Sequence record: MN850580.1 | DNA: 64,000 nt | Reading direction: 5' to 3' (one strand) | Origin: Escherichia phage momo | Shown: in pieces, positions 2,853 through 44,573 of the stretch | Position numbering within the stretch: position 1 is the first letter of the stretch | Layout of the letters: every line of letters begins with the position of its first letter | The notes under the pieces: model-generated | Told to the model about the DNA's origin: nothing | The model's input: only the letters and a program-made list of their open reading frames with translations | The model's database searches: none | Made by a program: the position numbers and the translations under genes

Positions 2853-4454
2853 TCAACGTCTAAGCCCCTCATATGGGTTTCCTCTCACTAAGTCTGTGTG
2901 AGCACCCATTGATGGTGGCTTGAATAATTTAACTTCGTTAAGACTGTTGAAAGCATCACTGGTAGCATCCACTTGGTCATCTTTAGTTTTGCCATCACCA
3001 CAAAAGCCTTCAAGCTCTTGGAAATAAGCTTCGTTCCAACTACCTCTCAAAACTTTTACAAGTCCAGCTTCAGAAGCAGCAGAAAACCCCGCAAAGCGGG
3101 TAACTTTATCTTTATTTGTTGGTTTGGCTCTTGCTCGATAACCTTTCTCGGCAAGTTTCCTGATGAGGGATGTTGCGTAGGATTTACCAGCAGCGCCTGG
3201 GTCTTGAGGGATAAAAATACCAGTTCGCTTACCGTCACTTTCAGCAGTCAAATTAATTTGTGTTTCGACTCCAGAGGGTCTATCTCTAAATCTTACTACA
3301 TCAATGATATAATAGCAACCGTCTTTTTTAGATTTACCCATCTTAACACCTGCTGTCCAGTCTGGATTAGGGTTAATTTCAGATGGTAAAGTTGCTGCTA
3401 AGTCCCATGCCCTAACATCAAATACATCCTCTGGGAGTGAATCAACAATTTCACACCATTGTCTTTGCCAATAGTTTGAACCTTCTGCACGAGCCTTCCA
3501 GTTACCGAAACGAAGTCTTGCAACGTTTACAGGGGTGTTGTTTTCCAACTTACCGCGATACTTTGGTTCTAAGAAGTCAAGAATTGGGTTATCATCAATC
3601 GTACCAGAGATGAAGGTGTATGTTTGAGGAATCTCAAGAGGGAACATTTCAAGAATCTTGTCTCTCTCCCAATCAGAAACCATCACACCATCATTCATTA
3701 CATACCAACGAATACGACCACACTTTTCAGGGTCTGGATAACCTTCTTCATCTAAGAATGGTTCTACCCAATCATAAATAAAGTGGTCTCTGTCTGGGTT
3801 CATGGAAATCTTCATGTATGAATCACCTTCAGCACCAGAACGTAGACGGGTTTGTAGGTATGAAATCTGTGAAGCAGAGAAGTGTGTACCTTCGTCAAAG
3901 TAAATAGCTGAGTATTCAATACCCTGATGACCTTCAGCGTGCTTTTCAAGTTCTAGGTAGGTAAACTTGATAGTCGCCCCAGAAGGGAATGTGATAGTCA
4001 TTTTCTGCTCGTGAGGAATCCCACCAAACTTACCAAATAGTTTCTTTGCAGCAGGCCATAAACCACCTTGTAACTGTGTTGTATTTCGACGGAAATATAC
4101 AGCATTATAGTTAGGGTCTTCAATAAATCTTAAAGAGTCCATTAACAATGCAGCAGTTTTACCAGCACCAGCAGCACCACCATAAAGAACCAAGTCAGCA
4201 TTAGTGTTTAAAAAGACCTCTTGAGAACCCGGTTGAGGGGCTACATAGTTCTTATCAGTCATCAATTTAAAGATAAGGCGAACTTGGTCTGGTGTGTATC
4301 TTAATAAAGTCAGAATTTGAGTTGGAAGGAATTTAGAGGGGTCTTTACCGAATGATTTGATAATTTCTTTTACTTCATCAGAAAGCCCCAACTCTCCAGC
4401 TAGGACTTTCCTAACATCTTCCACTCGCTTCTGCTTAACAGCATTTAAGTCCAT
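2853..4454 (-). CDS. terL: terminase large subunit
   Basis: Walker A LYGGAAGAGKTAAL near N-terminus, ~530 aa; start set at MDLNAVKQK preceded by GGAGGTG. Confidence 0.85.
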   Translation of the reverse strand: MDLNAVKQKRVEDVRKVLAGELGLSDEVKEIIKSFGKDPSKFLPTQILTLLRYTPDQVRLIFKLMTDKNYVAPQPGSQEVFLNTNADLVLYGGAAGAGKTAALLMDSLRFIEDPNYNAVYFRRNTTQLQGGLWPAAKKLFGKFGGIPHEQKMTITFPSGATIKFTYLELEKHAEGHQGIEYSAIYFDEGTHFSASQISYLQTRLRSGAEGDSYMKISMNPDRDHFIYDWVEPFLDEEGYPDPEKCGRIRWYVMNDGVMVSDWERDKILEMFPLEIPQTYTFISGTIDDNPILDFLEPKYRGKLENNTPVNVARLRFGNWKARAEGSNYWQRQWCEIVDSLPEDVFDVRAWDLAATLPSEINPNPDWTAGVKMGKSKKDGCYYIIDVVRFRDRPSGVETQINLTAESDGKRTGIFIPQDPGAAGKSYATSLIRKLAEKGYRARAKPTNKDKVTRFAGFSAASEAGLVKVLRGSWNEAYFQELEGFCGDGKTKDDQVDATSDAFNSLNEVKLFKPPSMGAHTDLVRGNPYEGLRR

Positions 4455-4898: not shown

Positions 4899-4974
4899 TG
4901 GAGAATCCGAAGGGACTCGAACCCTTATAAACCTGTTTTGCAGACAGGCACATATCCATTTCTGTCACGGATTC
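4899..4974 (-). tRNA. tRNA-Cys(GCA): tRNA-Cys (anticodon GCA), CCA encoded
   Basis: Manual cloverleaf: acceptor GAATCCG/CGGATTC, anticodon loop CUGCAAA, T-loop. Confidence 0.65.
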
Positions 4975-4978
4975 AAAT

Positions 4979-5071
4979 TGGAGGAAGATACCAGACTTGA
5001 ACTGGTACACCGATTTCTCAGCTACTGGCAGTTTAGCAAACTGCTCCCTTACCTTTTAGGGTTAATCTTCC
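4979..5071 (-). tRNA. tRNA-Ser(GCU): tRNA-Ser (anticodon GCU), long variable arm, CCA encoded
   Basis: 93 nt; acceptor GGAAGAT/ATCTTCC; anticodon loop UUGCUAA. Confidence 0.6.
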
Positions 5072-5072
5072 A

Positions 5073-5870
5073 TTATTTCTGTAATGCGCTCTTCATTTCT
5101 GGTGTTGCAATAGTGTCAATCACACCAGTTTTACAAGCATCGTCAAACCAGTCTGGTAAGATACCTGCTAAGAACCCATTGATATTCGTTTTAAGGTACT
5201 CTGCAATAAGGGCAGCTTCTTCTTCAATCATCTGCACAACTTCATCTGCATAAGCTGTAATCTTTGAAATACCTTCATTAATCTTACTGACAGCTTGGTT
5301 AGCTAAATCAGAAACAGTATCAAGACCCTTATCAATAGCATCTTGTAAGTCACTTAACACACCATTAACACTATCTAGTGTACTGTTCATCATGTCAATA
5401 GCTTTTTGACCATACTCTGTAGCAACACCCATGATACCACTGAATGGTGTACAACCAACTTGTTCTCCTGCTGCACCCATAACATTGGAATACCCCTTTG
5501 CTACCTGCATACGTGATGAAAACTCATCAATAGATTTTTGACCGTAGTCTGTCAGAGTTTTAGTAGTTGCTGTAGTGCTTGTAAGGCTTGTTGTAAAGCT
5601 GTTTAGAAGGACTGTTGTAAGTCCAGCAGCAACAAGTTTCTCCTTCATTGTAGGGTCTGTTACAGAACTAATAGAGCTTACAAGTGATGTAGAAGCAGCT
5701 ACGGTTCCACCGAGAACTGCTGCACCAGTAATAAGCGGGTTAGAGAACCCTTTACCAGTTTTTAAGAGATTAAAAATCTCCTTACCTTGTTCTGTCATCT
5801 CTTTCATTAAGCACCTTTGAAATTGGTAGTCCAGTGGGATTTGAACCCTCTTCTCATGTTTTTCAGACAC
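5073..5870 (-). CDS. hypothetical protein embedded in tRNA array
   Basis: 265-aa ORF between tRNA genes; Ser/Thr-rich middle region. Confidence 0.4.
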   Translation of the reverse strand: MSEKHEKRVQIPLDYQFQRCLMKEMTEQGKEIFNLLKTGKGFSNPLITGAAVLGGTVAASTSLVSSISSVTDPTMKEKLVAAGLTTVLLNSFTTSLTSTTATTKTLTDYGQKSIDEFSSRMQVAKGYSNVMGAAGEQVGCTPFSGIMGVATEYGQKAIDMMNSTLDSVNGVLSDLQDAIDKGLDTVSDLANQAVSKINEGISKITAYADEVVQMIEEEAALIAEYLKTNINGFLAGILPDWFDDACKTGVIDTIATPEMKSALQK

Positions 5871-5899
5871 GCGCTTTAACCATATAAGCTACTTGGACT
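5824..5899 (-). tRNA. tRNA-Phe(GAA): tRNA-Phe (anticodon GAA)
   Basis: Anticodon loop CUGAAAA, T-loop TTCAAAT, CCA encoded. Confidence 0.6.
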
Positions 5900-5905
5900 A
5901 TAAAT

Positions 5906-5981
5906 TGGGGTGACCTACGGGATTTGAACCCGTATAGACCATGTTCACAGCATGGGTCATTACCGTTTATGATAAGGCCAC
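5906..5981 (-). tRNA. tRNA-His(GUG): tRNA-His (anticodon GUG)
   Basis: Acceptor with one G-U pair; anticodon loop CUGUGAA; CCA encoded. Confidence 0.65.
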
Positions 5982-6012
5982 ATTTAAGGACTCTCGCAAG
6001 AATCCTTAGAAG

Positions 6013-6088
6013 TGGCAGCGGCATAAGGATTTGAACCTTAATAGGACAGCTTCAGAGGCTGCTGCATTGCCAGTTATGCTATACCGCT
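6013..6088 (-). tRNA. tRNA-Gln(CUG): tRNA-Gln (anticodon CUG)
   Basis: Anticodon stem GCAGC/GCUGU, loop CUCUGAA. Confidence 0.55.
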
Positions 6089-6093
6089 AAATT

Positions 6094-6172
6094 TGGTACT
6101 CCATATCGGATTCGAACCGATACATAACACAGATTTTAAGTCTGGCCTCTCTGCCAATTGGAGTAATGGAGC
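6094..6172 (-). tRNA. tRNA-Leu(UAA)?: tRNA with anticodon UAA (Leu by anticodon) but short variable loop
   Basis: Acceptor and T-arm clear; anticodon loop CUUAAAA; no long extra arm. Confidence 0.5.
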
Positions 6173-6174
6173 AT

Positions 6175-6250
6175 TGGCGGGGGATGTTGGAATTGAACCA
6201 ACTTCTTCGATTTCAAAGACCGAGGTTTTAACCTTGTAAACTAATCCCCT
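6175..6250 (-). tRNA. tRNA-Gln(UUG): tRNA-Gln (anticodon UUG)
   Basis: Anticodon stem UCGGU/AUCGA, loop CUUUGAA; possible 1-72 mismatch. Confidence 0.55.
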
Positions 6251-6258
6251 TTAAATCT

Positions 6259-6816
6259 TTACTTTCTCAGTGGATGAATAAAGAATGCCAACATAACTCT
6301 TTCCCTTGAGAATGCTCTTTCTTCTGGGACAACACTTTTTAGTTTCCATCCAACATAAATTCTCCAGTAAAACTGTTTACCAAAGATTTTAATTGACGGA
6401 ATAAAAGCGAATAATCCCCAAGCATTGTTGTTCCACATTAGGAGATAACCTGTCTGATTATCTTCAGGGTCAGAACTTACGTTGATATTACCTTTCCACT
6501 TAGTAACATCTTTTACATCTCTTCCTAATACATGGTAAGAGAAGTTATAAGCTTTGTTTCTCCAGAGCCATCCAACTCTCTGCATATAAACACCGAGCTT
6601 GCCAATCTTTCTAATCTTAGCCCATCTTTTAATGTGACCTTCATCACCATCAATAGGGTTGTCATATGTCTCCATCCATCTGAATCCAAAAGGTAGATGC
6701 CCTTTCTTCTCACTATAGAATGGAACTACAAAAGGTGCTAAGATAACTGCTAAGGTTGCTGCCAATGGGTCTAACAAAGCTAGGAAAATCCATGAAGCAT
6801 ACTTCAAATATCTCAT
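6259..6816 (-). CDS. hypothetical membrane protein embedded in tRNA array
   Basis: 185-aa ORF with hydrophobic N-terminal segment. Confidence 0.4.
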   Translation of the reverse strand: MRYLKYASWIFLALLDPLAATLAVILAPFVVPFYSEKKGHLPFGFRWMETYDNPIDGDEGHIKRWAKIRKIGKLGVYMQRVGWLWRNKAYNFSYHVLGRDVKDVTKWKGNINVSSDPEDNQTGYLLMWNNNAWGLFAFIPSIKIFGKQFYWRIYVGWKLKSVVPEERAFSRERVMLAFFIHPLRK

Positions 6817-6835
6817 TTAAATAGCCTCTTTAAAT

Positions 6836-6911
6836 TGGCGCAGGATAAGGGATTCGAACCCCTATTAACAGCTTCGTAGACTGCTGCTCTATCCATTTGA
6901 ACTAATCCTGC
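6836..6911 (-). tRNA. tRNA-Arg(ACG): tRNA-Arg (anticodon ACG)
   Basis: Perfect acceptor GCAGGAT/ATCCTGC; anticodon loop CUACGAA. Confidence 0.65.
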
Positions 6912-6916
6912 AAAAT

Positions 6917-6994
6917 TGGTGTTCCAAGACGGATTCGAACCGTCACTAGTACAAGGTTTGAGCTTGCATCCTCTGCCAATTGGGATATTGGAAC
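6917..6994 (-). tRNA. tRNA-Leu(CAA)?: tRNA with anticodon CAA (Leu by anticodon) but short variable loop
   Basis: Acceptor GUUCCAA/UUGGAAC; anticodon loop CUCAAAC. Confidence 0.5.
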
Positions 6995-6995
6995 A

Positions 6996-7070
6996 TGGTA
7001 CTCACTAAAGGACTTGAACCTTTTTCTTCATCTTGTAAGGGTGATGTTTTACCATATAAACTAAGCGAGT
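6996..7070 (-). tRNA. tRNA-Val(UAC): tRNA-Val (anticodon UAC)
   Basis: Anticodon loop CUUACAA; T-loop TTCAAGT. Confidence 0.55.
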
Positions 7071-7165
7071 ATGAAAGAGGTCTGAAGTTGTGCCGCTAAC
7101 TCAACTCCGTGGAATTTGTTACGGTCTTCAGTTGACACCAGCGGTCTTTCACTTGACCTCTGAAT

Positions 7166-7241
7166 TGGTGCTCCCACAAGGATTCGAACCCTGATAAGTT
7201 GCTTACAAGGCAACCGTAATAGCCAATTATACGATAGGAGC
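7166..7241 (-). tRNA. tRNA-Thr(UGU): tRNA-Thr (anticodon UGU)
   Basis: Anticodon stem GUUGC/GCAAC, loop CUUGUAA. Confidence 0.65.
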
Positions 7242-7248
7242 ATTAATT

Positions 7249-7323
7249 TGGAGCATCCAGAGGGAATCGAACCCTCAACCTCAGTTTGGAAGACTGTAAT
7301 TTTCCCGTTTAAACTATGGATGC
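7249..7323 (-). tRNA. tRNA-Gly(UCC): tRNA-Gly (anticodon UCC)
   Basis: Perfect acceptor GCAUCCA/UGGAUGC; anticodon loop CUUCCAA. Confidence 0.65.
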
Positions 7324-7329
7324 ACTAAT

Positions 7330-7403
7330 TGGTGGAGTCACTGAGAATTGAACTCAGTTCCCAAGTTTGCAAAACTCGAATTTTAACCATATAAACTATG
7401 ACC
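7330..7403 (-). tRNA. tRNA-Ala(UGC): tRNA-Ala (anticodon UGC)
   Basis: Acceptor GGGGUCA with G3-U70 pair (Ala identity element); anticodon loop UUUGCAA. Confidence 0.65.
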
Positions 7404-7410
7404 CCATTGT

Positions 7411-7486
7411 TTGGTACAGGTGGAGGGAATTGAACCCATCGTCTTACTGATTAAGAGTCAGCCGCATAACCATTTTGCTACACCTG
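7411..7486 (-). tRNA. tRNA-Lys(CUU): tRNA-Lys (anticodon CUU)
   Basis: Anticodon stem GCUGA/UCAGU, loop CUCUUAA; weak T-stem. Confidence 0.5.
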
Positions 7487-7493
7487 CATTAAT

Positions 7494-7571
7494 TTGGTAG
7501 GAGACAAGGGATTCGAACCCTCAAACATCTCGTTCTAAGCGAGATAGGTTTACCAATTACCGTCAATCTCC
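7494..7571 (-). tRNA. tRNA-Leu(UAG)?: tRNA with anticodon UAG (Leu by anticodon) but short variable loop
   Basis: Perfect anticodon stem UCUCG/CGAGA, loop CUUAGAA; 5-nt variable loop. Confidence 0.55.
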
Positions 7572-7830
7572 CATTAAATCTTTTTAGAGAACTTCTAAGA
7601 ACCTAAGCAACAAGGTTCCACAACAAGCTGTAATAACCTTAGAAGCCCTCTAAAAAGACCTAAAAAGGTCTTTGCATAGTCTTGTTTAATCCGGTGACTA
7701 GAACCTTTGGAGAGCTTGATATTATCTCTTCTCCGTGACACCTACTAGGTGCTTTACTGTGCGTGTACGACAATACACTAGGGATACCAAAGCAACATCC
7801 GAATGAAGCTTGGCTTTAAATCTTATTAGG

Positions 7831-7918
7831 CGGTAAGTAAAGGAGTCGAACCCTCACCGTATCTCTACAGTGGCAACTGTTTTCAAGACAGTTTGGCTAC
7901 CATTAGCCGCTACCTACC
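7831..7918 (-). tRNA. tRNA-Ser(UGA): tRNA-Ser (anticodon UGA), long variable arm, no encoded CCA
   Basis: Perfect anticodon stem ACUGU/ACAGU, loop CUUGAAA; discriminator G. Confidence 0.6.
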
Positions 7919-7931
7919 CCTAATAAGACTT

Positions 7932-8014
7932 TGGCATGGGACGGAGGAGTTGAACCACTTTGAAACGGTTTTGGAGGCCGTTGCTCATGCCTTAGAGTCT
8001 TAACATCGTCCCAC
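7932..8014 (-). tRNA. atypical tRNA-like gene (possible anticodon CCA, Trp) with extra nucleotides between acceptor and D region
   Basis: Clear acceptor GUGGGAC/GUCCCAU, T-arm and encoded CCA, but D-region does not fold canonically in manual fold. Confidence 0.4.
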
Positions 8015-8157
8015 ACTATAATTCGAAGCTTACCGTATTTTCACAACACTGTAAAGCCCCTTCTCAGATTATTTACATGTTCTGGAAAACATGAGATACA
8101 GACCACCTCCTTACACGGAGACCCGATAAGGTCGTCTAAGTAATCTGCTAACTAAAT

Positions 8158-8239
8158 TGGTCGAGGCGGCAGGACTCGAACCCGCATACTCCACTTACTC
8201 GGTTAACGGCGGTTTAGAAGACCGCTGAGATACGCCCCG
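8158..8239 (-). tRNA. atypical tRNA-like gene; one perfect 5-bp stem with loop CUUCUAA (UCU), no canonical D-arm
   Basis: Acceptor CGGGGCG/CGCCUCG, T-arm and CCA present; body folds ambiguously. Confidence 0.35.
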
Positions 8240-8487
8240 TAATTATCTTTAAAGACTCTCTTAGAAAGCCCTTAAAGATGCCCACCTTATTAATCATACC
8301 GTGGGCTAGTACGCCAAATTCTTTGATGAGGGATTGGAAGACCTCACTGGTGTTTAGCCTATCAAGCTACTGCCAGAAAAACATTGTCGTTTGCATTTAT
8401 TTTAAATTTGCAAAATAGACGCTACGCAACGAAAACTAAGGTTACTATAAAGTAGTCGCATCTCAATGTCAACAACTTTATTGAAAT

Positions 8488-8563
8488 TGGTACTGGTAGG
8501 TGGAATCGAACCACCGATGTTCCCTTATCAGGGGAGTGTTATAACCTTCTTAACTATACCAGC
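8488..8563 (-). tRNA. tRNA-Ile(GAU): tRNA-Ile (anticodon GAU)
   Basis: Anticodon loop CUGAUAA; T-arm GGUGG/CCACC. Confidence 0.6.
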
Positions 8564-8564
8564 T

Positions 8565-8641
8565 TGGAGGTTCAGATGGGAATCGAACCCACATTCATAG
8601 GGCTTATGAGACCCTTGCATTACCTTATCTGCGACTGAACC
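8565..8641 (-). tRNA. tRNA-Met(CAU): tRNA-Met (anticodon CAU)
   Basis: Perfect acceptor GGUUCAG/CUGAACC; anticodon loop CUCAUAA. Confidence 0.6.
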
Positions 8642-8645
8642 ATAT

Positions 8646-8720
8646 TGGTAGAAGTGGAGGGATTCGAACCCATCGCCTGTCAGATTAAAAGTCTGCCGCA
8701 TCACCATTCTGCTACACTTC
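8646..8720 (-). tRNA. tRNA-Lys(UUU): tRNA-Lys (anticodon UUU)
   Basis: Anticodon stem GCAGA/UCUGA (one G-U), loop CUUUUAA. Confidence 0.6.
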
Positions 8721-8872
8721 CATTAAATTATCTTTGTAGATAAGCTACCCAGACTTGCTTAAGGTCTGTAGCGATGTGACTTTTTGGGTTTAAATCTAGA
8801 ATTTACCCTTTCACCCTTTGTGGTCGCATACTCACAGGTAAGCTTAATAACTTATCTACAAAGATAATTACC

Positions 8873-9003
8873 AGACCGTTGTTTATCATCTTAAGTGCTA
8901 CCATTACACCAACTCGACCTCTGCCGAGTGAAGGAATCGAACCTTCGCCTTTTCTTTACCGAGAAATAGATTGTTTAAGTTTTGCTGTAAACGGTCTTCT
9001 GTA
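8873..9003 (-). repeat. tRNA-spacer hairpin repeat (CCAGACC...GGTCTTCTG) enclosing a T-arm-like hairpin
   Basis: Inverted termini CCAGACCGTT / AACGGTCTTCTG; internal GAAGG-AATCGAA-CCTTC with no matching acceptor stem. Confidence 0.4.
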
Positions 9004-9013
9004 AATTTGTTGA

Positions 9014-9113
9014 GCCAGACCAAGTTTTAAATTTTTTCAAAATTGAATTGGCTTGAAAATATCATACATTCTTGCTGTATTTGGTCTTCTACTCCTTTAA
9101 AGAATACTCGTAA
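9014..9113 (-). repeat. tRNA-spacer hairpin repeat (CCAGACC...GGTCTTCT)
   Basis: Same terminal inverted repeat as 8873-9003. Confidence 0.4.
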
Positions 9114-9152
9114 GAACTCTTTAAGGGAGGGGCTAAATAGCCCTCTCAAAAT

Positions 9153-9230
9153 TGGCGGTTACGAAGGGATTTGAACCCTCATCATCTCCCGTGACAGGGG
9201 AGTATTTTAACCAAATTAAACTACATAACC
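9153..9230 (-). tRNA. tRNA-Asp(GUC): tRNA-Asp (anticodon GUC)
   Basis: Perfect anticodon stem CUCCC/GGGAG, loop CUGUCAC. Confidence 0.65.
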
Positions 9231-9235
9231 TTTAT

Positions 9236-9323
9236 TGGTGTGCCGTGTAGGAGTCGAACCTACCGAGTCTCAATGACAAGGGATTTACAGTCCCCACCGC
9301 TACCATCTACGGGATAACGACAC
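9236..9323 (-). tRNA. tRNA-Tyr(GUA): tRNA-Tyr (anticodon GUA), long variable arm
   Basis: 85-nt body; anticodon loop CUGUAAA. Confidence 0.6.
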
Positions 9324-9331
9324 ATTTAATT

Positions 9332-9408
9332 TGGCGGTTAGTCAGGGATTCGAACCCTGTGCCATTCGCTTAACAGGCGACCGCACATACCTTATGTGCT
9401 TCCTAACC
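9332..9408 (-). tRNA. tRNA-Asn(GUU): tRNA-Asn (anticodon GUU)
   Basis: Anticodon loop CUGUUAA; T-arm CAGGG/CCCUG. Confidence 0.55.
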
Positions 9409-9418
9409 TTAATACATT

Positions 9419-9481
9419 GCCAGACCGTGTTTTTTCTTTTATCCGCAAAAAAGTATTTTGTTGCTGAATACGGTCTTCTGC
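9419..9481 (-). repeat. tRNA-spacer hairpin repeat (CAGACCGT...ACGGTCTTCTG)
   Basis: Terminal inverted repeat, immediately 3' of tRNA in transcript orientation. Confidence 0.4.
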
Positions 9482-9486
9482 AAAAT

Positions 9487-9563
9487 TGGAGGCGGGTGCA
9501 GGAGTCGAACCTGCCGATACCATGCTAATGAGACATGTGAGACGCCCTTTCTCTATACCCGCA
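9487..9563 (-). tRNA. tRNA-Met/Ile2(CAU): tRNA with anticodon CAU (initiator Met, elongator Met or lysidine Ile2)
   Basis: Anticodon stem CAUGU/GCAUG, loop CUCAUUA; possible 1-72 mismatch. Confidence 0.5.
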
Positions 9564-9574
9564 ATTCTTAATGA

Positions 9575-9648
9575 CCAGACCAAATCTCTTCTTTGTCCGA
9601 TTTACCTTCAGATGAATAAGATTAAGTTTGCTGTAATTGGTCTTCTGT
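9575..9648 (-). repeat. tRNA-spacer hairpin repeat (CCAGACCAA...TTGGTCTTCTG)
   Basis: Terminal inverted repeat as in the other spacers. Confidence 0.4.
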
Positions 9649-9654
9649 CAAAAC

Positions 9655-9732
9655 TGGCGTTCCAGAAGGGATTTGAACCCTCAGATATCCACTTTGAAAG
9701 AGTGGTGACTATACCATTTTGTCTACTGGAAC
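9655..9732 (-). tRNA. tRNA-Glu(UUC): tRNA-Glu (anticodon UUC)
   Basis: Perfect acceptor GUUCCAG/CUGGAAC; anticodon loop CUUUCAA. Confidence 0.65.
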
Positions 9733-9739
9733 ATTAATT

Positions 9740-9816
9740 TGGTCTCTGTTGGAGGACTTGAACCTCCGGCCTTACCGCCCCAAACGGAACGCTCTACCAA
9801 TCTGAGCTAAACAGAG
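9740..9816 (-). tRNA. tRNA-Pro(UGG): tRNA-Pro (anticodon UGG)
   Basis: Perfect acceptor CUCUGUU/AACAGAG; D-arm GCUC/GAGC; anticodon loop UUUGGGG. Confidence 0.65.
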
Positions 9817-42112: not shown

Positions 42113-43060
42113 TTACATAGAAATTCTGTCACGAATCTCAGCGATTTTTGCATCATTCATTCGGGATTCACCTTTAATCTTAGTCCATCCCAAATATCCG
42201 CACACCCTGTTAATCACAGAGATATCGTGTGAATGACAAACCTCACATTCTTCAACATCAGCCTTTGGTCTGTTACCACAATGTTCACAGATTGCTAAGT
42301 CAAAGTTAAGTCCCTGATAGAAACCTTTCAACATCCCTCTTGTAATACAACTTTTAAGTGCTGTTAAGTTTTCTGGGTTAGCTACTCTTACATACTGGAT
42401 TCTACCACCTCTACAGATATGGAAGAATGGCTCTTCTAAGTCCTGCTTCTCAAATGGTGAGATGTCTGCTGCAACATTCATATGGAAACTGTTTGTAAAG
42501 TATTCCTTGTCAGAGACACCTTTAATAACGCCAAACATATCTCTGAACTGTTTTAACTGAGTTCCACAAAGTGATTCTGCTGGAGTGCCATATACCGCAT
42601 ACAAGAAGCCATCTTCGTTCTTAAACTCTTCAGTTTTCATGTTGATGTATGCCAGAACATCATATGCAAAACTATAGCTTCCAACTTCATGAAGTCGTTT
42701 ACCTTCAGCAAGAACAGATAGCTCATCAAGCGCAGTAACCCCAAAAGAAGCTGTGAAGGACTTCACAATATCCCAACCAACCCTGTCAGTAGGCTTCTTA
42801 GTTCCTTTGTACAGACCACCTTGCGTGAATGCAAGAGGGTTAGAACTTGCTGGCATATTAGCAATCATTTCGTAGCGTTTCTTGTGGAAGCTGCGAATCA
42901 TCTCTAGGTACTTATCAAGCTCTTTCCAGAAATCTAAACCATTCTCTTTAGAATACTGGTAAATCATTGGTAAGTTCAAAGATACAGCACCAATGTTAGC
43001 ACGACCTACATAAAACTCTTCACCATGTTCGTTATGGTATGGTGATAAAAATGCTCTACA
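42113..43060 (-). CDS. nrdD: anaerobic ribonucleoside-triphosphate reductase NrdD, exon 2 (C-terminal glycyl-radical domain)
   Basis: C-terminal zinc-ribbon CEHCG...CEVCHSHD and glycyl-radical RVCGYLG; reading frame is open upstream to 43081; proposed exon start at codon TGT gives junction SPMG|CRAFLSP. Confidence 0.6.
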   Translation of the reverse strand, partial: CRAFLSPYHNEHGEEFYVGRANIGAVSLNLPMIYQYSKENGLDFWKELDKYLEMIRSFHKKRYEMIANMPASSNPLAFTQGGLYKGTKKPTDRVGWDIVKSFTASFGVTALDELSVLAEGKRLHEVGSYSFAYDVLAYINMKTEEFKNEDGFLYAVYGTPAESLCGTQLKQFRDMFGVIKGVSDKEYFTNSFHMNVAADISPFEKQDLEEPFFHICRGGRIQYVRVANPENLTALKSCITRGMLKGFYQGLNFDLAICEHCGNRPKADVEECEVCHSHDISVINRVCGYLGWTKIKGESRMNDAKIAEIRDRISM

Positions 43061-43376
43061 CTTGTTGTTCAGGTAAGTTCGCTAAGCTTACCCCGCTTTA
43101 TTCAAGCTGCTTACTGTCGCCAGTAAGTCCAGACTATATCTTCTACTTATTTCTAAGTAGCGTACCATTTCGAGTCGCTTGACCCTACACCGCTACATTC
43201 ATCACGGTTAGTCGTTCGGCATTTAGATGTACTCAAACTCATATTCGAAGTTATTCGGTATGTAAGACTCCTATGTTGTATAGTTTCTTACATCGTACAT
43301 CATTTAGCACAGGATTGTCTACATCTGTAGAGTTTCCCTGTTTAGGCACGTTTTAGATGAGCTATAGAGCTTGTTA
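43061..43376 (-). other. putative self-splicing group I intron in nrdD (no ORF)
   Basis: Interrupts nrdD; starts with in-frame TAA after exon-terminal U; R-like GACTAA and S-like AGATATAGTC elements, GNRA-capped hairpin CTTACTG-GCGA-CAGTAAG, ends in G. Confidence 0.6.
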
Positions 43377-44573
43377 ACCCATCGGTGAAATTACCTTACC
43401 AGAACGCTCAAAAGCCTCTGCTACAGCACCATGTCCAGTTACACTTAAGAAATCTGGATACATCGCTTTAGAGCAACACTCAATAGCTTTTTCAAACAAC
43501 CTTGCTTGGCATACATCAAGCTTATGTCTCGTTTCTTCATAGATATACACAAGTTTAGGGAACACAACAGGTTTTTTGCTTTTTCCTTGCCCGTTCATCC
43601 TTACGTTAAGGATTGTATTGGCAATCATAAACTGAAGACGGTTATCTTCATTGTGCATATCTGGTTCCAACAGACCAAATGTCAGAGTAGTAAATGCAAA
43701 ATCACCGCGACTGCAAGGAACAGTGTTAAGTTTCATTTCAAGAGATTGGAAACCTTGTGTTAACTCATTCTGTAATTGCTCCATTACGTAATTATAGTGT
43801 TGCTCTTTAGGGATTCCGTACTCTTCAGCTTTCTCTGAGTGGTACACTAAAGACTTCTTAGCATACGGTACAAGTACCTTATCAATCTCTGCTAAAGTAA
43901 AGCCACCAAATTGCTGTGCAGTTGCTGAAAGAACTACATCACCAATAACCTGTAAGGCTGACAGCACAGACTTCGGTTCACAGTATTCAATGCCAGACAT
44001 TTCAAAGCCACCTTTCAGCACTTTACCAATGTCAAACAGGCAACAGTTGATACCACCAAAAATTAGGTCTCTTAAATCATGGATATAGATAAACCCTTTT
44101 TCAATGGCTTCAAGTTCCTCTGGTGTTAAATGGTACTGTTTAAAGATTTCTTTAGTCAGGTAACCACGGATAATTGAACCTTTCGTAGAAATTAAACTGC
44201 TGTCAAAGTTAGCATTTTCACGGTCACCTAAGAAGAGTGTATCTTTAGTCTTCTGGTAGAGTTCATCCCAATTTTGAGCAACCTCTTTACGGTAATTTCT
44301 GTATGTTGAGTAAGACTCATAAATCTCGTGATTAACTTCTGCCAAAGCACCTTCAACAATACTGTGAATATCATTTACCGAGATAAGCAAATTATTCTGC
44401 TTAGTGGACTTTACCAAAATCCTCATGAATGCTGACTCAAGAGCTTGGGTAACATCTGGTGGAAGTTCTTTATATCCAACCCTGTTAGCTGACTTAGCTA
44501 CTGCTGCTAAAACTTTTTTTATATCAGGTTCTTCAAGTGAGCCGTTCTTTTTAATAATCTGTACTTTGTTCAT
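43377..44573 (-). CDS. nrdD: anaerobic ribonucleoside-triphosphate reductase NrdD, exon 1 (N-terminal ATP-cone and core)
   Basis: ATP-cone-like N-terminus (IIKKNGSLEEPDIKKV); spliced product about 714 aa, matching class III RNR size. Confidence 0.65.

What the first reader, a model, noticed from the sequence alone, without database searches (positions are those of the whole stretch)
7932..8239. Two tRNA-like genes with good acceptor/T-arms but non-canonical bodies
Elements at 7932-8014 and 8158-8239 have 7-bp acceptor stems, canonical T-arms and encoded CCA, but the D/anticodon region does not fold into a standard cloverleaf. The first has ~6 extra nt after the acceptor stem and a CCA-containing loop closable as a 9-nt loop. 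The second has one perfect 5-bp stem with loop CUUCUAA and no D-arm. They could be unusual functional tRNAs, tRNA mimics or decayed copies.
Basis: seen in the sequence. Interest (0 to 1): 0.45.

Follow-up and report, generated by a model that had tools for sequence, protein, structure and literature searches.

The report
Two rewired phage tRNAs: Arg, Trp
Two unannotated genes in the tRNA cluster of a FelixO1-like phage are conserved, structurally rearranged tRNAs: an arginine tRNA whose "D stem" wraps around the anticodon arm (a design shared by hundreds of unrelated phages) and a tryptophan tRNA with an enlarged core. They matter because they break the near-universal cloverleaf plan yet look like working tRNAs.

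Summary
The window is a Felixounavirus. Both elements lie on the minus strand inside its tRNA cluster, at the stated coordinates.

**Element 2 (8158-8239)** is not D-armless.
- Nucleotides 11-13(14) pair with 39(40)-42, so a D-like helix encloses the whole anticodon arm and gives a three-way junction.
- 50 distinct relatives show strong covariation for this helix and for the other three.
- The 82-nt design occurs in 262 cultured-phage records from unrelated groups. These include FelixO1-like, T5-like Klebsiella, rV5/phi92-like, jumbo Asteriusvirus and Streptomyces phages.
- It is almost absent from 185,579 cellular genomes.
- Every member carries an arginine anticodon (UCU, CCU, UCG, ACG or GCG).
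- In sister Felixounaviruses a canonical tRNA-Arg(UCU) occupies exactly the same site.

**Element 1 (7932-8014)** is restricted to Ounavirinae-like phages.
- It carries Trp identity marks: CCA anticodon, G73, and position 1 paired with U72.
- It has 6-7 extra nucleotides in the D region and a conserved 9-nt anticodon loop.
- Compensatory changes are seen in all four helices.
- Trp is the only amino acid with no canonical tRNA in this phage.

**Verdict:** both are selected, most likely functional non-cloverleaf tRNAs, not decayed copies. I found no description of either in the searchable literature. Charging and decoding are untested.

The parts
8158..8239 (-). Element 2: 82-nt rewired tRNA-Arg(UCU) gene. 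RNA position p corresponds to window coordinate 8240-p.
   Evidence: Rfam tRNA 31.7 bits. Family covariance model R1 gives 100.2 bits. Alignment A2 and pair counts.
8233..8239 (-). E2 acceptor stem 5' strand (nt 1-7, CGGGGCG). It pairs with 8162-8168.
   Evidence: All 7 pairs show changes on both sides and 99.1% of cells are paired.
8226..8232 (-). E2 U8-A9-U10 plus the 5' strand of the D-like helix (C11 U12 C13 A14).
   Evidence: UAUC is invariant in all 50 sequences. Pair 12:41 is UA32/AU9/GC9 and pair 13:40 is CG41/GC6/UA3, with none unpaired. Pair 14:39 is A.C 31, C.A 7, A:U 4, C:G 3, U.G 3.
8209..8225 (-). E2 anticodon arm: stem GCGGU/ACCGC and loop CUUCUAA. Anticodon UCU is at 8216-8218.
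   Evidence: All 5 stem pairs covary. Anticodons in the family are UCU 48, UCG 1 and CCU 1. Divergent members carry UCU, ACG, GCG and UCG.
8202..8208 (-). E2 7-nt bulge CGUUAAC, between the anticodon stem and the 3' strand of the D-like helix.
   Evidence: CGUUAA is present in 57 of 65 loci even when the search leaves it free; the variants have GUCAA. It is shorter and different in divergent members.
8198..8201 (-). E2 3' strand of the D-like helix (C39 G40 A41 G42).
   Evidence: Covariation with nt 11-14.
8186..8197 (-). E2 12-nt D-loop-like linker UAAGUGGAGUAU. Inferred equivalences: A14/R15 (A44, A45), G18-G19-A20 (G48, G49, A50) and Y48 (U54).
   Evidence: Nearly invariant when left free in the search. 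L155 changes A45->G together with U54->C. The roles are inferred from canonical tRNA tertiary pairs.
8169..8185 (-). E2 T arm: GCGGG UUCGAGU CCUGC.
   Evidence: 99.2% paired and 4 pairs covary. T loop is UUCGAGU or UUCGAAU in 43 of 50 sequences.
8158..8168 (-). E2 acceptor 3' strand (8162-8168), discriminator A (8161) and encoded CCA (8158-8160).
   Evidence: Discriminator is G 29, A 20, C 1, and CCA is encoded in 37 of 50.
7932..8014 (-). Element 1: 83-nt non-canonical tRNA-Trp(CCA)-like gene. RNA position p corresponds to window coordinate 8015-p.
   Evidence: Conserved in Felixounavirus, Mooglevirus and Yersinia phage P778. Pair counts. Aligns to E. coli tRNA-Trp with 6+1 inserted nt.
8007..8014 (-). 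E1 acceptor 5' strand GUGGGAC, plus G8, which can pair with C72 (8/4 reading).
   Evidence: Pair 1:72 is AU7/GU3/GC1 and pair 2:71 is UA10/CG1.
7998..8006 (-). E1 invariant extra linker AUGUUAAGA. It contains GUUA, a relic of the tRNA-Trp D-stem 5' strand GUUC.
   Evidence: Invariant in all 11 variants. Alignment to E. coli tRNA-Trp.
7984..7997 (-). E1 D-like hairpin: CUC / UAAGGCAU / GAG.
   Evidence: The middle pair is UA in 7 and AU in 4 sequences, a compensatory change.
7964..7982 (-). E1 anticodon arm: stem AACGG/CCGUU and 9-nt loop CCUCCAAAA. Anticodon CCA is at 7972-7974. Position 31.39 is C.A.
   Evidence: 4 of 5 stem pairs covary. The loop core CUCCAAA is identical to E. coli tRNA-Trp. 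Position 31.39 is C.A or C.C in all variants.
7944..7958 (-). E1 T arm: GUGG UUCAACU CCUC. There is a U.U mismatch in this window; relatives have G.U.
   Evidence: The outer pair is GC9/UA2.
7932..7943 (-). E1 C72, acceptor 3' strand GUCCCAU, discriminator G (7935) and encoded CCA (7932-7934).
8444..8472 (-). Sigma-70-like promoter TTGACA-17-TATAGT, about 205 nt upstream of E2. It is the likely start of the transcript that carries E2, E1 and the downstream tRNAs.
   Evidence: 11 of 12 consensus matches. Conserved in all five aligned phages. Function is inferred.

Best explanation
Both elements are genuine, selected tRNA genes with non-cloverleaf cores. They are most likely transcribed with the rest of the phage tRNA cluster, processed to the encoded CCA ends, charged by the host synthetases, and used in translation.

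**Element 2 is a tRNA-Arg(UCU) of a phage-specific class.**
- The acceptor stem, T arm and anticodon arm are standard, but the D domain is rewired.
- After U8-A9-U10, nt 11-14 run straight into the anticodon stem.
- After the anticodon stem comes a 7-nt bulge (CGUUAAN). Then nt 39-42 pair back to 11-14.
- A 12-nt strand (UAANUGGAGUAU) leads into the T stem.
- The result is a three-way junction: a 4+5 layer helix (D-like helix stacked on the anticodon stem) plus the acceptor/T stack.
- I infer that the 12-nt strand does the job of the D loop. Its GG would contact the T loop. The A after GG would serve as the ArgRS determinant A20. A45 and U54 would form the Levitt-type pair. The molecule would then still form an L shape.
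- It would read AGA (and AGG), which is frequent in this phage's genes.

**Element 1 is the phage's tRNA-Trp(CCA).**
- It descends from an E. coli-like tRNA-Trp by insertion of 6-7 nt in the D region.
- The insertion created a new 3-bp D stem (CNC/GNG) preceded by an invariant 9-nt linker.
- The 31:39 pair is lost, giving a 9-nt anticodon loop.

**Shown versus inferred**
- Shown: the secondary structures, conservation, distribution, anticodon restriction and allelic replacement.
- Inferred: the L-shaped fold, processing, charging and decoding.
For: **E2: structure**
- Alignment of 50 distinct sequences, all 81-82 nt.
- 94.8% of cells are paired. The covariation score is 0.792, against 0.194 for shuffles (0 of 500 reach it) and 0.09-0.17 for slid controls.
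- The D-like helix 12:41 and 13:40 shows 27 changes on both sides and no unpaired cell.
- Position 14:39 switches between A.C and C.A, or becomes A:U, C:G or U.G.
- The rival variable-arm hairpin shows no change on both sides and has 29 unpaired cells.

**E2: conserved motifs**
- A search that left the bulge and the D-loop-like strand free recovered the same motifs in 57 of 65 loci.
- One variant changes A45->G together with U54->C.

**E2: distribution**
- 262 cultured-phage records from unrelated groups carry it.
- 69 IMG/VR loci carry it, always within or next to tRNA clusters and in the same orientation.
- Only 4 true copies, all on MAG contigs, were found in 185,579 species genomes.

**E2: arginine identity**
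- Anticodons are UCU 48, UCG 1 and CCU 1.
- Five divergent rewired members found with the covariance model carry UCU, UCU, ACG, GCG and UCG.
- ArgRS identity is A20, C35, U/G36 and A/G73 (PMC9976931). All have equivalents here.

**E2: same job as a canonical tRNA-Arg**
- Sister phages ekra and Sf18 have a canonical tRNA-Arg(UCU) at exactly the same place, with homologous flanks up to the gene ends.
- Of 51 E2-bearing loci, only one also has a canonical-length tRNA-Arg(UCU).
- Clusters such as L155 and L053 have canonical Arg CCU, GCG and UCG plus the rewired one as UCU.
- AGA is 12.4 per 1000 codons, 31% of Arg codons, in 49 long ORFs of the window.

**E1**
- 99.1% of cells are paired. 8 pairs change on both sides, spread over all four helices. 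The score is 0.271, against 0.109 for shuffles and 0.045 or less for slid controls.
- U33, CCA and A37 are invariant while positions 32 and 38 vary.
- The loop core CUCCAAA, G73 and A1:U72 match E. coli tRNA-Trp. Trp identity is the anticodon, G73 and the first pair (PMC9976931).
- The 25 canonical tRNAs cover 19 amino acids, all except Trp. No tRNA lies in the part of the genome outside the window.
- A published analysis of the related phage Sf14 lists 26 tRNAs for 19 amino acids (PMC12482277).
Against: - There are no expression, processing, aminoacylation or decoding data for either RNA.
- Single-sequence folding energies are no better than shuffles.
- The L-shaped fold of E2 and the role assignments (A14, G18-G19, A20, Y48 equivalents) are inferences. 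The Levitt-like covariation rests on one sequence.
- Columns 32-37, 42-45 and 47-54 of alignment A2 were fixed by the search pattern. Their invariance is only partly tested, by the relaxed scan.
- E1 has several weak features in this window: a U.U in a 4-bp T stem, a 3-bp D stem and a 9-nt anticodon loop. One relative (REP8) has a mismatch in the acceptor stem. A 9-nt loop might impair or alter decoding.
- The E1 sample is small and closely related (11 variants, 91% mean identity).
- Why a rewired Arg tRNA would be preferred over the canonical one is unexplained.
Confidence: 0.7

Rival explanations
1. tRNA mimics or decoys. The RNAs are made and folded but are not used for decoding. They would act as sponges or competitive substrates for tRNA-directed anti-phage nucleases, or for another tRNA-binding protein. 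They would keep the anticodon arm and acceptor/T domain as bait, while their altered cores make them poor ribosome substrates.
For: - Phage tRNAs are known to neutralise tRNA-cleaving defences (PARIS: PMC11464382; retron effectors: PMC11555353; anticodon-loop variants: PMC10264068).
- Some retron systems are reported to cut tRNA D loops (PMC12916289).
- Both elements are altered precisely in the D region.
- E2 co-occurs with a canonical tRNA-Arg(UCU) in one locus, L046.
Against: - A decoy for one nuclease would be expected to keep one anticodon loop. The family instead spans five different Arg anticodons and only Arg ones. That pattern fits a constraint from ArgRS identity and codon demand.
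- E2 replaces the canonical tRNA-Arg(UCU) allele, and other clusters with E2 have no canonical UCU gene. It therefore carries the decoding role.
- Discriminator, CCA, G53:C61 and the T loop are all kept, as needed for charging and EF-Tu binding.
Confidence: 0.15
2. Decayed tRNA pseudogenes: relics of tRNA-Arg and tRNA-Trp genes that no longer function and drift neutrally.
For: - Standard tRNA finders miss or barely detect them.
- Most GenBank records leave them unannotated or call E2 'tRNA-OTHER'.
- The window's E1 has a U.U in the T stem, and REP8's E1 has an acceptor mismatch.
Against: - Helices are kept through dozens of compensatory changes.
- E2 length is fixed at 81-82 nt in 50 distinct sequences from unrelated phages.
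- The family scores 82 bits or more against its own model, while canonical tRNAs score 37 or less.
- The anticodon is restricted to Arg.
Confidence: 0.03
3. E1 is a recoding tRNA rather than a plain Trp tRNA. Its altered D/hinge region and unpaired 31.39 would let anticodon CCA also read UGA, as in Hirsh-type suppression, or shift the reading frame. This would give read-through of some phage or host UGA stops.
For: - In E. coli tRNA-Trp, the D-arm/hinge mutations G24A and A9C, and unpinning of an anticodon-stem pair, allow CCA to read UGA (PMC13092985).
- E1 is remodelled in exactly this region and has a 9-nt loop.
- In the window, 5 of 12 long ORFs that end in TGA have a second in-frame stop directly after. 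The figure for TAA is 4 of 35.
Against: - The known 4-bp-stem effect concerns the top pair 27:43, not 31:39.
- The tandem-stop signal fades with a larger ORF set: 6 of 26 against 6 of 54.
- TGA is an ordinary stop in 12 of 49 long ORFs, and no ORF pair was seen that needs read-through.
Confidence: 0.1
4. E2 owes its spread mainly to homing endonucleases. The rewired gene would be a cleavage-resistant allele of tRNA-Arg(UCU) that travels with free-standing HNH genes and displaces the canonical allele by gene conversion. It would be a working tRNA but not a better one. This is compatible with the best explanation as to function.
For: - In bumzen, FelixO1 and several IMG/VR contigs, an HNH ORF is inserted directly after the 3' end of E2.
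- Klebsiella phage Roth39 also has an HNH ORF directly 3' of its E2 homologue.
- E2 and the canonical gene are clean alleles with homologous flanks.
- About 116 records carry E2 at 95% identity or more. 265 records match the surrounding region.
Against: - The two HNH proteins are unrelated: BLASTP E = 0.12 and different Pfam HNH families.
- The window itself and most E2 loci have no adjacent HNH gene.
- No cleavage site is known.
Confidence: 0.2

Closest known systems
Canonical tRNA-Arg(UCU) of sister Ounavirinae phages (ekra, Sf18)
   Same: - Same genomic slot and flanks.
- Same anticodon loop CUUCUAA and a near-identical anticodon stem.
- Similar T arm, A/G73 and encoded CCA.
- Presumably the same job, reading AGA/AGG.
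   Different: - The canonical gene has a normal D hairpin (GUUC-AAUUGGAUA-GAGC) and a 5-nt variable loop.
- E2 has no D hairpin.
- Its D-like helix is formed by strands that lie on either side of the anticodon arm.
- A 12-nt D-loop-like strand sits where the variable loop would be.
- The acceptor stems are unrelated.
D-armless mitochondrial tRNA-Ser(GCU/UCU) of animals and other truncated mt-tRNAs (PMC7609411)
   Same: - No D hairpin, so a departure from the four-way junction.
- UCU or GCU-type anticodon, by coincidence.
   Different: - The mt-tRNAs replace the D arm by a short connector, lose the D-loop/T-loop contacts and are shortened.
- E2 is longer than a normal tRNA.
- E2 keeps a covarying D-like helix, a GG-containing D-loop-like strand and a fully canonical T arm.
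- E2 works, if it works, with the ordinary bacterial machinery.
Permuted tRNA genes of Cyanidioschyzon merolae and split tRNA genes of archaea (from my own knowledge, not checked here)
   Same: The order of tRNA segments in the gene differs from the canonical order.
   Different: There the mature tRNA is a normal cloverleaf after processing. In E2 the rearrangement would persist in the mature RNA: 5' D strand, anticodon arm, 3' D strand, D-loop-like strand.
E. coli tRNA-Trp(CCA), its Hirsh (G24A) and A9C suppressors, and 4-bp-anticodon-stem tRNA-Trp (PMC13092985)
   Same: - E1 shares the loop core CUCCAAA, G73, position 1 paired with U72, and the D-stem relics GUU...GAGC-A with E. coli tRNA-Trp.
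- Like the suppressors, it is altered in the D/hinge region and has one anticodon-stem pair unpinned.
   Different: - E1 has 6-7 inserted nt and a new 3-bp D stem.
- The unpaired position is 31.39, at the bottom of the stem. This gives a 9-nt loop. In the 4-bp-stem tRNAs it is 27:43, at the top.
- UGA reading by E1 is untested.
tRNA-Sec and allo-tRNAs with 8/4 or 9/3 acceptor/T geometry (PMC7609411)
   Same: - E1 can be drawn with an 8-bp acceptor and a 4-bp T stem, 12 bp in all.
- Its best Rfam hit is tRNA-Sec, at 21.3 bits.
   Different: - E1 has no long variable arm, no 6-bp D stem and no UCA anticodon.
- Its score is far below the 47-bit threshold.
- G8:C72 never varies, so the 8/4 reading has no covariation support.
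Phage tRNAs that counter tRNA-cleaving defences: T5 tRNA-Lys against PARIS, and phage tRNA-Tyr against retron effectors (PMC11464382, PMC11555353)
   Same: These are phage-borne tRNA variants that differ from the host tRNA in ways that could block recognition by a nuclease.
   Different: Those tRNAs are canonical cloverleaves with point differences. No defence system aimed at tRNA-Arg or tRNA-Trp has been linked to E2 or E1.

Membership tests
tRNA (Rfam RF00005 / canonical cloverleaf) | Score at or above the curated threshold (29 bits) | tested here: inconclusive
   E2 scores 31.7 bits, just above threshold, but only by treating the D arm as deleted and nt 32-54 as an insertion. E1 has no RF00005 hit listed; its best hit is tRNA-Sec at 21.3 bits against a 47-bit threshold. 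ARAGORN finds neither.
tRNA (Rfam RF00005 / canonical cloverleaf) | 7-bp acceptor stem, discriminator and 3' CCA | tested here: met
   Both elements meet this. The acceptor pairs covary in both families.
tRNA (Rfam RF00005 / canonical cloverleaf) | T arm: 5-bp stem and 7-nt loop UUCRANY | tested here: inconclusive
   E2 meets it: GCGGG UUCGAGU CCUGC, 99.2% paired. E1 does not fully meet it: a 4-bp stem with U.U in this window (G.U in relatives) and loop UUCAACU.
tRNA (Rfam RF00005 / canonical cloverleaf) | Anticodon arm: 5-bp stem and 7-nt loop with U33 and a purine at 37 | tested here: inconclusive
   E2 meets it: CUUCUAA, with U33 and A37 invariant. E1 has U33 and A37, but 31.39 is C.A or C.C in all variants, giving a 9-nt loop.
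tRNA (Rfam RF00005 / canonical cloverleaf) | D arm as a local hairpin between positions 10 and 25, giving a four-way junction | tested here: not met
   In E2 the two strands of the D-like helix (11-14 and 39-42) flank the anticodon arm, giving a three-way junction. E1 has a local 3-bp hairpin, but it is preceded by a 9-nt invariant linker instead of 2 nt.
tRNA (functional definition) | Aminoacylation by a cognate synthetase and decoding on the ribosome | not testable with these tools
   Only indirect evidence is available: identity nucleotides are present (for the rules; for the sequences), E2 replaces a canonical tRNA-Arg allele, and the codons are in demand.
Rewired phage tRNA-Arg class (defined here) | An 81-82-nt RNA in this order: 7-bp acceptor strand, UAU, CNN(N), 17-nt anticodon arm with an Arg anticodon, a bulge, (N)NNG pairing back to CNN(N), UAA(N)UGGAGUAU, T arm | tested here: met
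   The window copy scores 100.2 bits on model R1. Members score 82 bits or more and canonical tRNAs 37 or less.
D-armless mitochondrial-type tRNA | D arm replaced by a short unpaired connector, with reduced size | tested here: not met
   E2 is 82 nt and has a covarying D-like helix and a D-loop-like strand.
tRNA-Sec / allo-tRNA | Extended acceptor/T geometry (8/5 in bacterial tRNA-Sec; 8/4 or 9/3 in allo-tRNAs), a long variable arm, and for tRNA-Sec a 6-bp D stem | tested here: not met
   E1 has a 5-nt variable loop and a 3-bp D stem, and scores 21.3 bits against a 47-bit threshold.
[quoted passage not shown] | Top pair 27:43 unpaired, with demonstrated UGA read-through | tested here: not met
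   In E1, 27:43 is paired and covaries. The unpaired position is 31.39 (definition). Read-through is not testable here.
tRNA pseudogene | Loss of pairing, with substitutions that ignore the structure | tested here: not met
   94.8% (E2) and 99.1% (E1) of cells are paired, with many compensatory changes.

The most novel reading that the evidence does not exclude
The rewired core is an adaptation, not an accident.
- E2-type tRNAs would be fully functional arginine tRNAs whose backbone path through the core is changed while the L shape is kept. That would make them invisible to host or rival-phage nucleases, or to homing enzymes, that recognise the canonical D arm/elbow of tRNA-Arg or its gene.
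- E1 would be a Trp tRNA whose remodelled hinge and 9-nt loop also let it read UGA.
- Together they would show that free-living translation systems tolerate non-cloverleaf tRNAs, and that phages exploit this in the arms race over tRNAs.
Probability: 0.15. Interest if true: 0.9.

Novelty: new variant of a known kind. Interest (0 to 1): 0.8.

Why it matters
- **A break in a near-universal plan.** Outside organelles, almost every elongator tRNA is a four-way-junction cloverleaf. E2 shows a widespread tRNA class with a different backbone topology. It is present in well-known cultured phages: FelixO1-like, phi92/rV5-like, PBECO4-like jumbo phages and T5-like Klebsiella phages. It appears to use the normal bacterial ArgRS, EF-Tu and ribosome. 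If it is charged and decodes, it is a natural experiment on which parts of tRNA architecture are truly required, and a new scaffold for tRNA engineering.
- **An annotation gap.** These genes are unannotated in nearly all of 262 phage records. Phage tRNA repertoires and codon-usage analyses are therefore systematically missing a tRNA-Arg, and in Ounavirinae the tRNA-Trp. One example is the published count of 26 tRNAs for 19 amino acids.
- **A testable link to defence.** The restriction to arginine and the remodelling of the D region make a link to tRNA-directed defence directly testable.

Tried and rejected
1. **Single-sequence folding.** The minimum-energy structures were no better than shuffles. 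For E2 the prediction was a small variable-arm hairpin (38-40/47-49), which comparative data reject: no change on both sides and 29 unpaired cells.
2. **First IMG/VR pattern for E1.** The second gap was one base too long. It returned 48 loci and none of the Felixounavirus-length (~87 kb) contigs that do carry E1. From the pattern's low specificity I take these to be chance matches; I did not inspect them. The corrected pattern found only Ounavirinae-like contigs.
3. **Alternative D stems for E1.** AUGUU/GGCAU is not conserved in phage P778. The ancestral GUU(A)/(G)AGC is broken by the A->U change that is compensated in CNC/GNG.
4. **A pseudoknot in E2 between GUUA (33-36) and UAAN (43-46).** U35->C variants keep A44/A45, and divergent members lack GUUAA.
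5. **A single mobile "E2 + HNH" cassette shared by Felixounavirus and T5-like Klebsiella phages.** The two HNH proteins are unrelated.
6. **tmRNA.** The only sign is a 15-bit partial hit upstream of E2. ARAGORN finds no tmRNA in the window.
7. **UGA recoding.** The tandem-stop enrichment after TGA is weak and depends on the ORF set.
8. **Literature.** Seven full-text searches, including sequence strings, found no description of either RNA. The library is incomplete, so prior description elsewhere cannot be excluded.
Full report
**Context**

The region 7560-8500 is 99.9% identical to Escherichia phages allfine and garuso, and it matches 265 records that are mostly Felixounavirus. The window carries a minus-strand tRNA cluster at 4899-9816. 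ARAGORN finds 25 tRNAs there, covering every amino acid except Trp, and no tRNA-Arg(UCU). The part of the allfine genome that lies outside the window has no tRNA. The two elements sit between tRNA-Ile(GAU) and tRNA-Ser(UGA), downstream of a near-consensus promoter at 8472-8444, TTGACA-17-TATAGT. The whole intergenic stretch is conserved from Felixounavirus to Mooglevirus.

**Checking the observation**

Read on the minus strand, both elements are as described:
- 7-bp acceptor stems, each with one wobble pair;
- a discriminator followed by an encoded CCA;
- a 5-bp stem closing CUUCUAA in element 2 (E2);
- a 5-bp stem closing a 9-nt CCA-containing loop in element 1 (E1), with extra nucleotides after the acceptor stem.

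Two points need correcting. The E1 T arm is not canonical in this window. E2 is not simply D-armless (see below).

Standard tools barely see either element. ARAGORN finds neither. Rfam tRNA gives E2 31.7 bits against a 29-bit threshold by skipping the D arm. E1 gets only 21.3 bits, against tRNA-Sec. Folding energies are no better than shuffles. A few GenBank records call E2 'tRNA' or 'tRNA-OTHER, NNN'. Most records annotate nothing there.

**E2: a family with a rewired D domain**

*Relatives.* BLAST with the region found 83-90% identical copies of E2 in unrelated phages. These include T5-like Klebsiella phages (Roth39, Spivey), jumbo Asteriusvirus (A4, PBECO4), rV5/phi92-like phages, Taipeivirus-like Klebsiella phages and Streptomyces phages. 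The copies always lie in tRNA clusters and in the tRNA orientation.

A motif scan of IMG/VR, which did not fix the anticodon, gave 74 stretches, of which 5 were one coding false positive. Together with the cultured-phage copies this gave 50 distinct sequences, all 81 or 82 nt long.

*Pair counts.*

| Measure | Value |
|---|---|
| Cells paired | 94.8% |
| Covariation score | 0.792 |
| Shuffled control | 0.194 (0 of 500 reach the observed value) |
| Slid controls | 0.09-0.17 |

All four helices show compensatory changes. The new helix is C11-N12-N13 with N40-N41-G42:
- 12:41 is U:A in 32, A:U in 9 and G:C in 9 sequences;
- 13:40 is C:G in 41, G:C in 6 and U:A in 3;
- no cell is unpaired.

Position 14:39 is A.C in 31, C.A in 7, and A:U, C:G or U.G in 10. 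It therefore behaves as a fourth, wobble-type layer.

*Resulting structure.* The anticodon arm is nested inside the D-like helix. The 5' strand runs unbroken from nt 11 to nt 19. The 3' strand carries a 7-nt bulge (CGUUAAN). A 12-nt strand (UAANUGGAGUAU) joins the helix to the T stem. The small variable-arm hairpin predicted by energy minimisation has no covariation support.

*Ascertainment.* The bulge and the 12-nt strand were fixed by the first pattern, so I ran a second scan that left them free. It recovered the same motifs in 57 of 65 loci. The other eight loci had one to three changes. One of them changes A45->G together with U54->C.

**E2: inferred three-dimensional logic**

This paragraph is inference from the established tertiary pairs of canonical tRNA.
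- In a normal tRNA the D stem stacks on the anticodon stem, about ten layers in all. Here 4+5 layers do the same.
- The strand that leaves the top of the D-like helix (U43 A44 A45 N U G48 G49 A50 ...) has the sequence signature of a D loop: A14, R15, G18, G19, A20.
- That strand ends in U54 just before the T stem, where Y48 lies. The single A45G/U54C double change fits a Levitt-type 15:48 pair.
- U8-A9 are kept.
- The molecule could therefore form the usual L with a different backbone path through the core.

**E2: why an arginine tRNA that works**

1. *Anticodons.* The strict family has UCU 48, UCG 1 and CCU 1. A covariance model built from the family separates members (82 bits or more) from canonical tRNAs (37 bits or less). 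It also picks out five divergent rewired RNAs, with shorter bulges and without GUUAA. Their anticodons are UCU, UCU, ACG, GCG and UCG. That makes five different anticodons, all arginine. This pattern is expected if the RNA must stay a substrate of ArgRS.
2. *Identity elements.* ArgRS determinants are A20, C35, U/G36 and A/G73 (PMC9976931). All have counterparts: GGA in the 12-nt strand, C35, U36 or G36, and a discriminator that is G in 29 and A in 20 of 50.
3. *Allelic replacement.* In phages ekra and Sf18 a canonical tRNA-Arg(UCU) occupies the same position, with homologous flanks right up to the gene ends. About 116 records carry E2 at 95% identity or more. 265 records match the surrounding region.
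4. *Slot filling.* Of 51 E2-bearing loci, only one also has a canonical-length tRNA-Arg(UCU). Several large clusters have canonical Arg CCU, GCG and UCG genes plus the rewired one as the UCU species.
5. *Demand.* AGA makes up 12.4 per 1000 codons and 31% of Arg codons in 49 long ORFs of the window. From my own knowledge, AGA is rare in E. coli.

*Phage restriction.* The same motif scan over one genome for each of 185,579 bacterial and archaeal species gave 18 stretches. Only 4 are true members, all on MAG contigs. The rest are chance matches in coding sequence.

**E1: a remodelled tRNA-Trp**

E1 is present in Felixounavirus, Mooglevirus and Yersinia phage P778. A specific IMG/VR scan found it only on contigs whose size fits Ounavirinae genomes, mostly about 87 kb.

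On 11 distinct variants, 99.1% of cells pair, and 8 pairs change on both sides:

| Helix | Observed pairs |
|---|---|
| Anticodon stem | AACGG/CCGUU, GACGG/CCGUU, GUAAG/CUUAC, GUAGG/CCUAC |
| D stem | CUC/GAG and CAC/GUG |
| T stem | GGGG/CCUC and UGGG/CCUA |
| Acceptor, pairs 1:72 and 2:71 | A:U, G.U or G:C; U:A or C:G |

- The loop keeps U33, C34, C35, A36 and A37, while positions 32 and 38 vary. Position 31.39 is C.A (C.C in P778), so the 9-nt loop is itself conserved.
- The E. coli tRNA-Trp sequence, verified in all 5426 complete E. coli genomes in the collection, aligns to E1 with 6+1 inserted nucleotides in the D region. The two share CUCCAAA, G73, position 1 paired with U72, and the D-stem relics GUU...GAGC-A.
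- The GUUAA shared by E1 and E2 is therefore best read as inherited D-arm sequence, not as a common protein-binding site.
- Covariation favours the new CNC/GNG stem over the ancestral one.
- The window and two IMG/VR contigs carry a G->U change that turns a G.U in the T stem into U.U.
- A published analysis of the related phage Sf14 lists 26 tRNAs for 19 amino acids. It does not report this RNA as a tRNA.

**Alternatives**

- *Pseudogenes* are excluded by the comparative data.
- *A decoy role* against tRNA-cleaving defences cannot be excluded. Phage tRNAs do counter such systems, and some retron effectors are reported to cut D loops. However, the spread over five Arg anticodons and the replacement of the canonical allele argue for decoding.
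- *A Hirsh-like UGA-reading role for E1* is suggested by what D-arm and anticodon-stem changes do to E. coli tRNA-Trp. The affected pair differs, though, and the only genomic hint, tandem stops after TGA, is weak.
- *HNH endonuclease genes* sit directly 3' of E2 in some Felixounaviruses and in a T5-like Klebsiella phage. They are unrelated proteins. Homing may help the allele spread, but it does not define it.

**Novelty and limits**

Seven full-text searches, including searches for the sequences themselves, found no description of either RNA. A 2020 review of non-canonical tRNAs does not mention phages. The library is incomplete, so this is absence of evidence. Everything about expression, folding in three dimensions, charging and decoding is inferred and needs the experiments listed.

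Noticed in passing
L179:528-926 (phage bumzen; insertion point corresponds to window ~8152); L005:983-1492 (Klebsiella phage Roth39): An HNH endonuclease ORF is inserted directly after the 3' end of E2 in bumzen, FelixO1 and some IMG/VR contigs. An unrelated HNH ORF sits directly 3' of the E2 homologue in a T5-like Klebsiella phage. This may reflect homing around this tRNA gene.
   Followed up: partly
window 8240-8443 (minus strand), hairpin 8327-8346: The ~200-nt leader between the promoter and E2 is highly conserved and is predicted to be structured. One hairpin (UGAGG/CCUCA, 10-nt loop UCUUCCAAUC) keeps pairing through three compensatory changes in Mooglevirus Sf18. It may be a relic of another tRNA, or a small RNA or processing element. 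There is also a weak partial Rfam tmRNA hit at 8241-8430 (15 bits).
   Followed up: partly
window 8015-8157 (minus strand): The 143-nt spacer between E2 and E1 is almost invariant from Felixounavirus to Mooglevirus, including the hairpin CAUGUU-UUCCAG-AACAUG. Sf18 has a 23-nt insertion here. Its function is unknown.
   Followed up: no
window 43110-43437 (minus strand): A group I intron (Rfam 54.4 bits) lies between two ORFs, 43374-44573 and 42113-42979. By their sequences these look to me like the two halves of an anaerobic ribonucleotide reductase (nrdD), as in phage T4. I ran no family search on them.
   Followed up: partly
L039:4163-4256, L059:6269-6364, L064:1612-1702: Several E2-bearing phage contigs also encode 91-96-nt tRNA-Ile(UAU) genes with a normal D arm and a long, hairpin-forming variable arm. 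A class II-like shape is unusual for Ile.
   Followed up: partly
L005:2886-2970 (Klebsiella phage Roth39): A second 'tRNA-OTHER' in this phage has a normal D arm and T arm, but a GGGGA-GCUA-UCCCC hairpin is inserted in the anticodon loop.
   Followed up: no
window, 49 long ORFs: ORFs ending in TGA are directly followed by a second in-frame stop in 5 of 12 cases, against 4 of 35 for TAA. The difference shrinks to 6 of 26 against 6 of 54 when ORFs of 70 aa or more are included.
   Followed up: partly
L154:3326-3405 and 3407-3496; L087:2689-2766; L059:13348-13429; L160:2103-2182: Divergent rewired tRNA-Arg genes with anticodons GCG, UCG, ACG and UCU. They have shorter bulges without GUUAA, and one has an extra hairpin. 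Two of them lie in tandem in L154.
   Followed up: partly
window 7829-7918 (minus strand): The neighbouring tRNA-Ser(UGA) scores only 33.2 bits on the Rfam tRNA model, and 39 bits on tRNA-Sec. AYO145A and Si3 annotate the nearby tRNA-Leu(UAG) as a pseudo-tRNA. Several members of this cluster sit near detection thresholds.
   Followed up: no
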